64,000 bases of DNA from a virus. Lineage: Duplodnaviria > Caudoviricetes. This document shows, piece after piece, positions 61,519 to 64,000 of the stretch. Numbering within the stretch: position 1 is the first letter of the stretch; each line of letters opens with the position of its first letter. The notes under the pieces are model-generated. The model had not been told where the DNA came from. It searched no databases and saw only the letters and a list, made by a program, of their open reading frames with translations. The position numbers were made by a program, and so were the translations under genes. The DNA lies in the IMG/VR virus record IMGVR_UViG_2754412371_000001, positions 29,313 to 93,312 of that record. The stretch is one strand, 5' to 3'.

Positions 61519-61698
61519 TCATCGTGCACCTCCATTGACCGACTTGATACGCTTCGGCATCGCGCAGCGTCGCTCACGGGCCGCGTGAATCGGGCCACCC
61601 ATGAGGAGATCGATCACCCACCAGCACACCGCACCGATGAGCACCGCGGCACCGATGACCAGCAAGACGGCACAGAACCATTCGAACTGTTCGAGCAT
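61519..61698 (-). CDS. Small membrane protein
   Basis: MLEQFEWFCAVLLVIGAAVLIGAVCWW; GGAGG RBS. Confidence 0.55.
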   Translation of the reverse strand: MLEQFEWFCAVLLVIGAAVLIGAVCWWVIDLLMGGPIHAARERRCAMPKRIKSVNGGAR

Positions 61699-61711
61699 GT
61701 CGCCCTCCCCC

Positions 61712-61861
61712 TTATGCGAGCGACGGCGTGACGCGGAACGGATCCACTTTGACCAGATTGCCCTGATCGTCGGTCGTGAACAGACCAGGCTGGCCGTCAT
61801 ACACCTTGTAGAGAAAACCGAAGCGGCGTGCGAGAACGGGAAGGCAGAGGTGGTGTTGCAT
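61712..61861 (-). CDS. Small hypothetical protein
   Basis: 49-aa ORF in tandem with the previous one. Confidence 0.4.
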   Translation of the reverse strand: MQHHLCLPVLARRFGFLYKVYDGQPGLFTTDDQGNLVKVDPFRVTPSLA

Positions 61862-61966
61862 GGTGAAAGCCCGGTTGTGTTGAAGAGCTTTCATTCTCGA
61901 GATCGGGCTCTGGAGCACCGCAGGACGCTACAATCGACGCACTACAATTCCGAATCGGGGATAGCC

Positions 61967-62341
61967 ATGAAGCGAATCATCTTCGGCGTCACATTGCTGA
62001 CGGCGGTGGCTTGTGCCAATGCACAGGCTAGTCCGCCCTCCCGGACCTTCTATAAGGGCTCTAATTTTTTGCGGCTGACGCCGAGTGAACAGATGGGGTA
62101 TCTGCAAGGCGTGATCGACGGTTTCGATACAGCGCCAGATCTATATAACGACCAGGATTCGCCCATGCGCCTAGCCATCTATAAGTGCAGCAAAGCCATG
62201 GACCTCCACGGCAAGCAACTCTATACGATCGTCAGCAACTACATGCAGGCAAACCCGGAGCGGTGGGAATACAGCATGGGCGAACTGGTGCTGTTCGCCA
62301 TGGCTCAATCTTGCAAGAAGGTGGGGATACCCATCAACTGA
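61967..62341 (+). CDS. Secreted Rap1a/Tai-like immunity-fold protein
   Basis: Signal peptide; GYLQGVIDG..C..QLYTIVSNYMQANPERW..LV..A....C. Confidence 0.6.
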   Translation: MKRIIFGVTLLTAVACANAQASPPSRTFYKGSNFLRLTPSEQMGYLQGVIDGFDTAPDLYNDQDSPMRLAIYKCSKAMDLHGKQLYTIVSNYMQANPERWEYSMGELVLFAMAQSCKKVGIPIN

Positions 62342-62349
62342 ATCGAAAC

Positions 62350-62615
62350 CTTATACGGCGCGCCTTGGAAACTTATAGGGCGACATGCCAACCTTATATG
62401 TGACTCTTATAGGGCCGCGGCTGTCCAAGGAGCTCCATACCGGCGCTGATCTTGGATATTTTCGGCATGGTCGATTCCTAGGAAGCCCCGTCCAGCTTGG
62501 CAGACAGGACAATTGGCCTTCCTTGGCGGGGTGCCGGGCGGTATAAGAAAATTTCCAGGGAGCACGTTTTTAACATGACGATGCGGCCCGCCAGCCTCAC
62601 TTTCTTATACGGCGC
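62350..62615. repeat. Cluster of CTTATA(C/G)GG repeats
   Basis: CTTATA at 62350, 62372, 62393, 62406 and 62604; inverted copy at 62542. Confidence 0.65.
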
Positions 62616-63031
62616 ACAACGCGGTGAGTGCGTGAGGATGGGGTATATATGGGAATGTGTGGATGATCCATATACGATGCGTGCACTCTCCTATCCGCGC
62701 CGGTATTGGGATGGCACGAGTCGGTGTTGTTGTCCTCTTCCGTGCTCTTCTCATCGTTCGAGCCATCGATCATTCTTCTGTTTTTCTCTACTGTTCTGGG
62801 CCAGCGCTGCCTATCCCTGACGTCATGAAGTCTCCCTGAAGCCGCACGGAAGCATTGCGCCCTCGGATTCTTGCGATTACGGTTCAGAATCAAGGACTTA
62901 TTGCGCACATTTCACTACCCTCTGTTTCGAGGCAGAAAACGTCCAAGTTTTCACGCTGTTCGCGGCCCTCTCACCAGAAAATGAACAGGGATTCTTTCCT
63001 CTAAAGTGCGTGCGTTCTCACCCTGATTGCC

Positions 63032-63880
63032 ATGACGAAGCGCTACCTCGAACGGAACATTGTCTCGGTCATCCAGCAGCTCAATGCGGAGGGAATCGAG
63101 CGAGTTTCTTCGATGGAAGTGGCGTCTCGGCTGGGTGAAAGCAGGACAACAATCGGCAGGTATTTGAACGCGCTGGTGGATTCTGGGCGTCTGGATCGTG
63201 TCGGTTCTGGATCAGGAACCCGCTACGTGCTGGTGAATATCGGCGATTGGCTGGACCGGAAATCCGCGGCAGCCGGCGACTTCGACGATTCGGGCGCAAT
63301 GGTGTCGTTCCAGGCTTACCAGGCTGCTGACGCGTATGTGCGTCGGCTATCCCCTCTCGTAGGCGAACGTGGCGCTCGCAGGAAGGGGAAACGAGTCGGG
63401 ATCGTAGTCGTTACGCCTGACCGCGGCGCGCACGGTCGATACGCGGCTCGGATTCTGGGCGCTCTCTCGCGGAAGATCCACGACCTAGAGACTGAAGGGC
63501 TCGGCGTGGAGCTCACCGCGATCGGCCAACTCGCGGGTGACTTCGTCGCGGGGGCCGGACTGCCGATCAAGTCGTCGATCGAGAAGATCCGGTCCGGGTC
63601 GAAGCTCGAAGGGTTGATCGGTGCGCTCAACAGTCATGCCGAAGGTTATGTCGCAGGGCGTCTGCGCGCGATCTACCTCGTCCATGCAGGGTTTATCGAG
63701 TCTGCGAACAGCGGCATTGTGGTGGATCGCGTATTACCGCTTGATCCCGATTCCGTTGCGCATGACGGAGCAGACGAGGCGCTAGCGCCCGACATTGTGC
63801 GTCGCTATATCGAGGCAGTTGTGCTTCGGTCCGTGTGCGAAACCATTACGCTGCAGGCTGTATTGGCAGCTGGTGATTGA
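63032..63880 (+). CDS. Winged-HTH domain protein with unknown C-terminal domain
   Basis: VSSMEVASRLGESRTTIGRYLNALVDSGRLDRVGSGSGTRY. Confidence 0.75.
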   Translation: MTKRYLERNIVSVIQQLNAEGIERVSSMEVASRLGESRTTIGRYLNALVDSGRLDRVGSGSGTRYVLVNIGDWLDRKSAAAGDFDDSGAMVSFQAYQAADAYVRRLSPLVGERGARRKGKRVGIVVVTPDRGAHGRYAARILGALSRKIHDLETEGLGVELTAIGQLAGDFVAGAGLPIKSSIEKIRSGSKLEGLIGALNSHAEGYVAGRLRAIYLVHAGFIESANSGIVVDRVLPLDPDSVAHDGADEALAPDIVRRYIEAVVLRSVCETITLQAVLAAGD

Positions 63881-63904
63881 GTTACGTCTTTGGAGATTTA
63901 AACG

Positions 63905-64000
63905 ATGGTGGAAGGTAAGATTGTTCAGTGCATCGGCGCCGTTATCGACGTGGAATTCCCGCGCGACAGCATGCCGAAGATCTACGACGCGCTCATTCTC
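63905..64000 (+). CDS. atpD: F1Fo ATP synthase beta subunit, 5' end (truncated by the window)
   Basis: Not in the ORF track: [32 protein letters not shown]; GGAGA RBS at ~63892. Confidence 0.92.

What the first reader, a model, noticed from the sequence alone, without database searches (positions are those of the whole stretch)
63032..64000. Prophage apparently integrated into the 5' end of atpD, supplying a replacement start for ATP synthase beta
Seen: phage DNA runs directly into [32 protein letters not shown] with its own GGAGA RBS, 24 nt after the stop of a co-oriented wHTH gene, and no atpG lies upstream. The first codons (gtg gaa ggt aag att gtt) are mostly T-ending, whereas the later ones are mostly C-ending. 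Knowledge: housekeeping atpD follows atpG in atpBEFHAGDC, and from memory Burkholderia AtpD starts MST(A/T)[12 protein letters not shown], five residues longer. Inference: attP carries a shortened, synonymously recoded atpD start, with crossover near cagtgcatcggc (~63926). atpD and atpC would then be cut off from the atp promoter and transcribed from phage DNA, possibly behind the wHTH gene. That would give the prophage control over host ATP synthase beta/epsilon supply.
Basis: partly seen in the sequence, partly recalled or inferred. Interest (0 to 1): 0.85.

Follow-up and report, generated by a model that had tools for sequence, protein, structure and literature searches.

The report
Phage cargo mimicking ATP synthase genes
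A Burkholderia prophage carries a very rare two-gene cassette: a DNA-binding protein built from an ATP-synthase gamma-subunit domain, followed by a re-started copy of the beginning of the beta-subunit gene. The phage itself sits in a different chromosome site, so it probably has not cut the host's ATP synthase operon as first proposed.

Summary
The sequence is as described. A 282-aa gene (63032-63880) is followed after 24 nt by GGAG-N9-ATG (63905) and [11 protein letters not shown]..., an atpD start five residues shorter than native. It has four synonymous changes in its first five codons and is identical to native Burkholderia atpD from 63926.

- The upstream "wHTH gene" is two-thirds an ATP-synthase gamma domain (Pfam PF00231 above cut-off; AlphaFold/Foldseek top hits are F1 gamma).
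- The other end of the about 93-kb SSU5-like prophage is not atpG plus an atpD stub. Its only integrase abuts the 3' end of a chromosome-2 oxygenase gene.

Two assemblers stop exactly k-1 or k bases past 63925. This implies that the atpD 5' sequence occurs twice in this genome.

A sister phage (91%-identical integrase, 104 kb) matches up to about 62,810, lacks the cassette, and carries other cargo there plus 10.9 kb more.

The same cassette (fusion 54% identical, dN/dS 0.24) lies in an unrelated element in three other B. cepacia-complex strains. Only four sequences exist among about 15 billion proteins.

Best reading: a phage-borne cargo cassette, not integration into atpD. What follows base 64000 could not be reached, and the function is unknown.

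The parts
62810..63031 (+). Upstream non-coding part of the cassette, probably its regulatory region
   Evidence: Homology to sister phage G096 ends at about 62,805-62,815. The last roughly 90 nt before the start codon are conserved with the unrelated L004/L092 element, and nothing further upstream is. No sigma-70 consensus or terminator was found by the simple scan. No Rfam hit.
63032..63880 (+). Gene for a 282-aa fusion protein: N-terminal winged helix-turn-helix (residues about 3-67), a linker helix, then an ATP-synthase gamma-like globular domain with the first part of the C-terminal helix (residues about 107-279)
   Evidence: PF00231 at 53.7 bits (cut-off 39.9), residues 107-271 = profile positions 63-233 of 285, plus weak HTH hits at residues 12-75. 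PDB gamma chains at E = 1e-12. AlphaFold2 pLDDT 85.6, pTM 0.73. Foldseek top 50 hits are all F1 gamma, E about 1e-11. dN/dS is 0.24 between two close copies.
63881..63904 (+). 24-nt spacer with GGAG (63892-63895) 9 nt before the ATG
   Evidence: Read directly. The diverged L004/L125 version keeps GGAG-N7-ATG in an otherwise dissimilar 35-nt spacer.
63905..63925 (+). Element-specific start of atpD': ATG replaces the native Leu6 codon TTG, followed by four synonymously changed codons
   Evidence: Alignment with five native atpG-atpD junctions. These positions are invariant in 14 species.
63926..64000 (+). atpD' segment identical to native Burkholderia atpD (codons 13-37 of the native gene). It is repeated elsewhere in the same genome.
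   Evidence: 75/75 identical to B. anthina atpD. The Logan k=31 contig ends at 63955 and the NCBI contig at 64002, that is 30 and 77 nt past 63925. The same geometry is seen in B. territorii.

Best explanation
The finding is the visible part of a small cargo cassette (window about 62,810 to beyond 64,000). The cassette is carried inside a temperate SSU5-like tailed phage. The phage is integrated next to the 3' end of a PiuC-like oxygenase gene on chromosome 2 of a Burkholderia cepacia-complex strain, not in the atp operon.

The cassette has three parts:
- its own conserved upstream region of about 90-220 nt;
- a gene for a winged-helix DNA-binding domain fused to a strongly diverged gamma-subunit globular domain. 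The rotor-shaft helices are missing, so this protein cannot act as a rotor;
- 24 nt later, behind a GGAG ribosome-binding site, an ATG created at native codon 6 that reads into atpD sequence.

This atpD piece is a second, element-borne copy, partial or whole. From 63926 onward it is identical to the host's own atpD, which is why both assemblies break there. The native atpG-atpD junction most likely persists elsewhere in the genome.

Shown: the anatomy; the gamma fold; purifying selection on both domains; absence of the cassette from a sister phage; presence of the cassette in an unrelated element; and the chromosome-2 left junction.

Inferred: that the atpD piece is an extra copy and that the phage continues past the contig end.

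Proposed mechanism (speculative, about 1 in 4). The fusion protein is a transcription factor whose gamma-derived domain binds a natural partner of gamma, either epsilon or beta. It would regulate the cassette, whose second gene makes at least the N-terminal crown domain of beta. This would let the element sense or perturb F1 assembly in the lysogen.
For: 1. Left end. The integrase (G000 1-1275) is preceded by 98 nt of phage DNA and then by host DNA that is 90-94% identical to chromosome-2 loci of B. seminalis, B. anthina and B. ubonensis. These loci hold the oxygenase, a TonB-dependent receptor, an OTCase-like gene, EamA and AraC. There is no atp gene within 8.4 kb.
2. The Logan contig stops 50 nt into the host, inside the oxygenase 3' end. 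That 29-mer is single-copy in five uninfected relatives. This fits an att-type duplication at the oxygenase site.
3. The record holds only one recombinase and no internal copy of the left junction.
4. It is one coherent tailed phage. It has terminase, portal, tape measure, tail fibre, DnaB and ligase, and 17 copies of an element-wide palindrome between G000 11875 and 89058. Its portal is about 53% identical to SSU5-like phages of 103-120 kb. CheckV completeness is 84%.
5. Sister phage G096 (integrase 91% identical, 104,464 bp, 94% complete) matches window 54000 to about 62,810 at 79-96% identity. It lacks the cassette and has a KAP NTPase and 10.9 kb more DNA there.
6. Contig ends at 63955 (k=31) and 64002 fit a repeat starting at 63926. 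The same 47-nt offset is seen in B. territorii.
7. In a third strain the L092 copy of the fusion gene is truncated at codon about 133. It lies in the middle of a 231-kb contig with no atpD beside it, so a host does not need the cassette for atpD expression.
8. The fusion gene is functional: dN/dS is 0.24 overall, 0.15 for the wHTH part and 0.28 for the gamma-like part, and the fold is predicted with confidence.
9. GGAG and the ATG at the same codon are kept in both lineages although the spacers have diverged.
Against: - The DNA after base 64002 was never seen, so 'extra copy' is inferred and not shown.
- A look-up for the predicted native-context contig end (a 37-aa product) found nothing. A look-up for a contig starting at the repeat also found nothing.
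- The abrupt switch from about 24% divergence to 0% at 63926 is what a junction between element DNA and host DNA would look like. For a long-resident cargo copy it requires gene conversion by the host gene or very strong nucleotide-level constraint.
- G096's extra 10.9 kb may be partly host flank. Its last 2.5 kb is a T6SS-type effector/immunity module found in other genomes. The claim that the phage continues past the cassette therefore rests mainly on CheckV estimates and the genome sizes of relatives.
- That the NCBI assembly used k=77 is an inference.
- No binding or DNA-recognition test of the fusion protein was possible.
Confidence: 0.55

Rival explanations
1. The sequence right of 63926 is the host's only functional atpD, so atpD and atpC are expressed from the element. 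Because the phage's left end lies on chromosome 2, this would need a chromosome 1 / chromosome 2 translocation, or another rearrangement, through the element.
For: There is a sharp boundary: 5/21 differences, then 0/75. The design (own RBS, an ATG at codon 6, an in-frame join) is what a replacement start needs. The same arrangement occurs at the contig end in three strains. The predicted native-context contig end was not found.
Against: The left flank is chromosome-2 DNA with an att-like duplication of the oxygenase 3' end, and there is no atpG or atpD stub. SPAdes crosses the left junction but not the right one, so the two repeats differ. The sister phage and CheckV indicate more phage DNA beyond the cassette. 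The L092 strain tolerates a truncated cassette with no atpD beside it. Independent translocations in several strains are unlikely.
Confidence: 0.15
2. The atpD piece is a homology arm. The cassette lets the element, or the cassette alone, recombine by RecA with the host atpD in a Campbell-type single crossover that leaves atpD intact behind a new promoter and start. Repeated crossovers keep the element copy identical to the host gene downstream of 63926. The sequenced culture may be a mixture of states.
For: At least 77 nt are perfectly identical to the host gene, directly behind an element-specific start. The cassette is shared by two unrelated elements, as expected for a module that moves through a common chromosomal locus. 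Graph branching occurs exactly at the identity boundary in three strains.
Against: No recombinant junction (atpG, then native 5' end, then element DNA) was seen. The length of the homology is unknown. No precedent is known to me. A mixed population was not tested.
Confidence: 0.12
3. The atpD piece is a dead passenger fragment. An ancestral element captured an atpG-atpD junction, the gamma part was co-opted into a regulator, and the beta start is carried along without function.
For: The gamma-like part is only 31-34% identical to Burkholderia AtpG and has lower GC3 (0.66 against 0.83), so the capture is old. Traces of the native ATTTAAA motif remain upstream of the start.
Against: GGAG and the ATG at the same codon are conserved in two lineages whose spacers have otherwise diverged. 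A dead fragment as old as the fusion gene should have decayed, not stayed 100% identical to the host gene.
Confidence: 0.13
4. Assembly artefact: the last 77 nt were joined to the phage wrongly.
For: The feature sits at the very end of a draft contig.
Against: Two assemblers with different k give the same join, and their ends differ exactly as the k values predict. The same join is found in two other strains sequenced separately. The k-mers spanning 63925/63926 must be present in the reads.
Confidence: 0.03

Closest known systems
Prophages that integrate into a protein-coding gene and carry a substitute gene end (e14 and phage 21 in E. coli icd; recalled from the literature, not re-read here)
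   Same: Mobile DNA carries an in-frame, synonymously diverged copy of one terminus of a housekeeping gene. A sharp switch to host-identical sequence follows.
   Different: Here it is the 5' end with a new start codon and RBS, not the 3' end. This prophage is not flanked by the target gene: its integrase end lies at a chromosome-2 oxygenase gene. The piece sits in a cargo slot that is absent from a sister phage.
F1 ATP synthase gamma subunit (PF00231; e.g. the E. coli gamma/epsilon complex 1FS0, and 3OAA)
   Same: Residues about 107-279 have the gamma globular alpha/beta domain and the adjoining helix segments. Foldseek gives E about 1e-11 with TM up to 0.74 on the target; the sequence match is E = 1e-12.
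   Different: The N-terminal shaft helix is replaced by a winged helix-turn-helix, and the last roughly 45 residues of the C-terminal shaft helix are missing. Identity to Burkholderia AtpG is only 31-34%. The gene is encoded on mobile elements, not between atpA and atpD.
Phage morons and lysogenic-conversion cargo near the attachment site
   Same: The cassette is present in one phage and absent at the same position from a close relative. It has a different codon composition, its own upstream region, and is shared with an unrelated element.
   Different: The cargo is built from pieces of two adjacent essential host genes. One piece is kept nucleotide-identical to the host copy.
F1-like ATPase gene clusters outside ATP synthesis (e.g. 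the Mycoplasma mobile G1-ATPase, 9IO5, which appears in the fold hits)
   Same: A gamma-like protein used outside the canonical ATP synthase.
   Different: Those clusters are complete alpha/beta/gamma motor complexes with diverged subunits. Here there is no alpha, the gamma domain is fused to a DNA-binding domain, and the beta piece is host-identical.
SSU5-like phage-plasmids (Pfeifer et al. 2021, PMC7969092)
   Same: Portal about 53% identical, similar genome size class, and its own replication genes (DnaB, ligase).
   Different: This phage has a tyrosine integrase and is joined to the chromosome.

Membership tests
   The left flank is a chromosome-2 oxygenase / TonB-receptor locus. There is no atp sequence within 8.4 kb, and the phage left end has no similarity to atpD.
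   TTG->ATG plus four synonymous changes, then 75/75 identity from 63926.
   The contig ends at 64002 and the rest of the genome is not held. The break points imply two copies of the 5' region.
F1 ATP synthase gamma subunit (PF00231) | Match to the family profile above the curated cut-off, and the gamma fold | tested here: met
   53.7 bits against a cut-off of 39.9. The Foldseek top hits are all gamma chains.
F1 ATP synthase gamma subunit (PF00231) | Full N- and C-terminal coiled-coil shaft helices that insert into the alpha3-beta3 ring | tested here: not met
   Profile positions 1-62 and 234-285 are not matched. Residues 1-75 fold as a winged helix, and the protein ends about 45 residues early.
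F1 ATP synthase gamma subunit (PF00231) | Encoded in the atp operon between atpA and atpD | tested here: not met
   It lies in a prophage cargo slot and in an unrelated accessory element. All 93 native genes found in 95 Burkholderia genomes are separate and only 31-34% identical.
Phage moron / cargo cassette | Absent from a closely related phage at the same position | tested here: met
   G096 matches up to about 62,810 and then carries different genes.
Phage moron / cargo cassette | Own promoter and terminator | tested here: inconclusive
   A conserved upstream block of about 90 nt is shared with the other element, but no sigma-70 consensus or terminator was found. The 3' end was not seen.
SSU5-like phage group | Shared head and packaging genes, and a genome size of about 100-120 kb | tested here: met
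   Portal 50-54% identical to SSU5 and its relatives of 103-120 kb. CheckV completeness of 84% at 93 kb implies a full size of about 111 kb.
SSU5-like phage group | Maintained as a plasmid in lysogens | tested here: not met
   The left end is joined to chromosome-2 DNA next to a tyrosine integrase in two assemblies.

The most novel reading that the evidence does not exclude
Mobile elements of the Burkholderia cepacia complex carry a 'gamma-mimic' transcription factor. Its ATP-synthase gamma-derived domain would bind free epsilon or beta subunits and couple that signal to DNA binding. It would drive a re-started beta gene and, through the host-identical atpD arm, could recombine in front of the chromosomal atpD and atpC. 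The element would then be able to sense and take over supply of the catalytic subunit of the host ATP synthase.
Probability: 0.15. Interest if true: 0.85.

Novelty: new variant of a known kind. Interest (0 to 1): 0.55.

Why it matters
If the cassette is functional as a unit, it would be the first case known to me of two things. One is a rotor-subunit domain of the ATP synthase reused as the sensor or partner-binding domain of a DNA-binding protein. The other is a mobile element that carries a deliberately re-started copy of the catalytic beta-subunit gene.

Either would point to phage manipulation, or monitoring, of host energy conversion at the level of F1 assembly.

There is also a practical point. 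NCBI names one member (WP_060348551.1) 'F0F1 ATP synthase subunit gamma', which is misleading. Draft assemblies break at this cassette, so it is easily mistaken for a prophage inserted in atpD.

Tried and rejected
**Reaching the DNA beyond base 64000**
- The host genome is not held.
- Exact-product look-ups failed for a contig starting at the repeat (QCIGAV...) and for a native-context contig end (37 aa).
- The 32-aa product found only the same contig.
- My first integrase look-up used a partial sequence and failed. One look-up used the wrong end of a minus-strand gene.

**Searching for more family members**
- Nothing in species genomes, phages or plasmids, or viral and metagenome contigs.
- The window end has no near match in the phage collection.
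- The exhaustive HMMER search gave only self, P0002 and the partial P0003. Cluster listing added P0100.

**Other searches that led nowhere**
- A search for short AtpD N-terminal stubs was too noisy to use.
- Integrase homologues in species genomes are only about 50% identical and lie beside no tRNA, oxygenase or atp gene, so they say nothing about target choice.
- The phage left arm has no exact match in viral contigs.
- L092's downstream DNA is accessory and absent from relatives.
- G096's terminal DNA does not match the chromosome-2 flank.
- No Rfam family matched, and there is no unusual mRNA folding at the start.
- No paper in the library describes a prophage in atpD or a gamma-HTH fusion.

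**Ideas rejected**
- A composite of two tandem elements: the element-wide motif, the single integrase and the unbroken k=31 contig argue against it.
- An 8-nt GAATTCCC match between the left arm and atpD as an att core: this is at chance level.

Full report
**1. What is in the sequence**

The window is the last 64 kb of a 93,312-bp IMG/VR provirus record, and it ends where that record ends. The parent NCBI contig is LOYC01000004.1 of GCA_001524725.1 (167,311 bp). It stops two bases later, so the right edge is an assembly break and not a mapped prophage boundary.

At 63032-63880 lies a 282-aa ORF. After 24 nt containing GGAG (63892-63895), an ATG at 63905 opens [32 protein letters not shown].

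Five native atpG-atpD junctions from related Burkholderia read AAAGGAAAAGCG ATG AGT ACT GCT GCT TTG GTA GAA GGC AAG ATC GTA CAG TGC.... The window copy therefore starts at native codon 6 (TTG changed to ATG). It has synonymous changes in four of the next five codons. From 63926 it is 75/75 identical to B. anthina atpD, giving 5/21 versus 0/75 differences (Fisher p = 3e-4). The same 90 nt of the native gene are invariant in 14 Burkholderia species, so the recoding is not normal variation.

**2. The upstream gene is not a plain wHTH gene**

- Pfam places residues 107-271 in the ATP-synthase gamma family (53.7 bits, cut-off 39.9, profile positions 63-233 of 285). Only weak HTH hits fall in residues 12-75.
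- Solved gamma chains match at E = 1e-12.
- An AlphaFold2 model (pLDDT 85.6, pTM 0.73) shows a winged helix (residues 3-67), a long helix (86-113), an alpha/beta domain (121-235) and a C-terminal helix (249-279).
- The 50 best Foldseek matches in the PDB are all F1 gamma subunits, including the E. coli gamma/epsilon complex 1FS0.

The N-terminal shaft helix is replaced by the DNA-binding domain, and the last roughly 45 residues of the C-terminal shaft helix are absent. The protein therefore cannot be a rotor. It is only 31-34% identical to Burkholderia AtpG, and its GC3 is 0.66 against 0.83 for native atpG. This points to an old derivative of atpG.

**3. The other end of the element**

The record begins with a 424-aa tyrosine integrase, the only recombinase in it. 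In the NCBI contig the integrase is preceded by 98 nt of phage DNA. Before that comes host DNA 90-94% identical to a chromosome-2 locus of B. seminalis, B. anthina and B. ubonensis. That locus holds a PiuC-like 2OG-Fe(II) oxygenase, a TonB-dependent receptor, an OTCase-like gene, EamA and AraC. Host homology ends 16 nt after the oxygenase stop codon.

There is no atpG, no atpD stub, and no similarity between the phage left arm and atpD.

A k=31 Logan assembly of the same reads starts its phage contig 50 nt inside the host, within the oxygenase 3' end. That sequence is single-copy in five uninfected relatives. Its apparent duplication in the lysogen fits an attachment-site repeat there. No copy of the left junction exists inside the 93 kb, so attR lies beyond the record.

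**4. The element is one phage, and the cassette is cargo**

PHROG hits to large terminase, portal, tape measure, tail fibre, DnaB and DNA ligase show a tailed phage. I found 17 copies (two mismatches or fewer) from G000 11875 to 89058, which supports a single element. The portal is about 53% identical to SSU5-like phages of 103-120 kb. CheckV rates the record 84% complete.

A sister provirus, G096, has 104,464 bp, 94% completeness and a 91%-identical integrase at its end. It matches window 54000 to about 62,810 at 79-96% identity. At that point it lacks the cassette. It carries instead a KAP-family NTPase, an SRAP peptidase, unknown genes and a DUF4123 / Tox-REase-5 / Imm52 trio over a further 10.9 kb. 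Most of that DNA is absent from 95 Burkholderia genomes. Only the last 2.5 kb recurs, as a mobile effector module.

The cassette therefore occupies a variable cargo slot in the right arm, and the phage probably continues past the contig end.

**5. Why the assemblies stop here**

The Logan contig ends at 63955 and the NCBI contig at 64002. These points are 30 and 77 nt beyond 63925. This is what de Bruijn assemblers with k=31 and k=77 do when a unique path enters a sequence that has a second left context in the same genome. That the NCBI assembly used k=77 is my inference.

In B. territorii the two assemblies end 67 and 114 nt after the fusion gene's stop. That is the same 47-nt offset, with the shared sequence beginning right after the A of the ATG. 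A third sample breaks at the same place.

The atpD 5' sequence is therefore present twice in each of these genomes. SPAdes crosses the left junction of the phage but not this repeat, so the two repeats are different.

**6. The cassette elsewhere**

Among 1.8 billion representative proteins only the window's protein, P0002 and the partial P0003 belong to this family. Every other hit is an ordinary gamma subunit. A cluster listing added P0100 from B. territorii, which NCBI names 'F0F1 ATP synthase subunit gamma'.

These copies lie in an element that shares nothing else with the SSU5-like phage. It carries a DNA methylase, an H-NS-like protein, a nucleoside deoxyribosyltransferase and a DprA-like protein.

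- The fusion proteins of the two lineages are 54% identical over their full length.
- About 90 nt upstream of the start are also conserved.
- GGAG plus an ATG at the same atpD codon are kept, although the spacers differ.
- Between two close copies dN/dS is 0.24 overall, 0.15 for the wHTH part and 0.28 for the gamma-like part.
- In one strain the fusion gene is truncated at codon about 133. It sits in the middle of a 231-kb contig with no atpD next to it.

**7. Interpretation**

The simplest account of all this is a phage-borne cassette, built long ago from an atpG-atpD junction. The phage itself is inserted at the chromosome-2 oxygenase site.

It is further weakened by the sister phage and by the truncated copy. 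It is not excluded, because nothing beyond 64002 could be read, and the abrupt change from diverged to identical sequence is what a junction between element and host DNA would look like. If the piece is cargo, gene conversion by the host gene, or repeated homologous exchange with it, has to be invoked.

I put the cargo reading at 0.55. A true junction with the host's only atpD (requiring a rearrangement) is at 0.15. A homology-arm or dynamic-recombination reading is at 0.12. A dead passenger fragment is at 0.13. An artefact is at 0.03.

**8. Mechanism**

Shown: a well-folded protein under purifying selection that joins a winged helix to the gamma globular domain. It is followed at translational-coupling distance by a maintained start into beta-subunit sequence.

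Inferred: the gamma globular domain is the part that binds epsilon and faces the beta C-terminal domains in F1. The most economical guess is therefore that the fusion protein binds one of these partners and links that to DNA binding at its own conserved upstream region. The downstream ORF would supply at least the N-terminal crown domain of beta.

**9. Novelty and limits**

I found no paper describing a prophage in atpD or a gamma-HTH fusion. The comparison with e14 and phage 21 at icd is from memory.

The family is tiny: four sequences, all from B. cepacia-complex isolates, three of them with run accessions in the same SRR1956xxx series. The 3' extent of the cassette is unknown. Read-level analysis of SRR1956404, or a long-read assembly, would settle the architecture quickly.

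Noticed in passing
L087-L102 (native atpG-atpD junctions of 14 Burkholderia species); equivalent to window 63875-63965: The native atpD translation-initiation region (30 nt upstream plus the first 20 codons) is identical at every nucleotide in all 14 species sampled, synonymous sites included. This suggests strong constraint at the RNA or codon level.
   Followed up: partly
L003:1-148 and L005:11972-12140 (left junction, outside the window): The prophage attachment site lies 16 nt after the stop of a chromosome-2 PiuC-like 2OG-Fe(II) oxygenase gene. The k=31 assembly breaks 50 nt into the host, which implies that about 30-76 nt of the gene's 3' end is duplicated. That duplicate is presumably the attP/attB identity block.
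   Followed up: partly
window 61601-62341 (+); L142:341-2520 in sister phage G096: The cargo region of this phage lineage holds T6SS-related genes. The window has an ORF with a weak Rap1a (T6SS immunity) hit. G096 has a DUF4123 / Tox-REase-5 / Imm52 trio and a KAP-family NTPase at the position of the cassette.
   Followed up: partly
P0100 = WP_060348551.1 (B. territorii, L125:10001-10855): NCBI names this wHTH-gamma fusion 'F0F1 ATP synthase subunit gamma'. It lacks the rotor-shaft helices and lies in an accessory element, so the name is misleading.
   Followed up: yes
L092:6983-8389 and L092:10400: In one strain the second element carries a group II intron reverse transcriptase insertion. Its fusion gene is cut at codon about 133 and followed by unrelated accessory genes (a CBS-domain protein and a trypsin-like peptidase).
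   Followed up: partly
G000 11875-89058 (window up to 59746): The palindrome TAAGTCA-N4-TGACTTA occurs 17 times (two mismatches or fewer) across the phage. No copy with two mismatches or fewer lies past window 59746, so none lies in the cassette. This fits the cassette being foreign to the phage regulon.
   Followed up: partly
window 62350-62415 and 62538-62613: There are three direct copies of CTTATAGGGC-like decamers and a 13-nt inverted repeat (GCGGTATAAGAAA / TTTCTTATACGGC). They lie in the non-coding phage backbone just left of the cassette, in a region conserved with sister phage G096.
   Followed up: no
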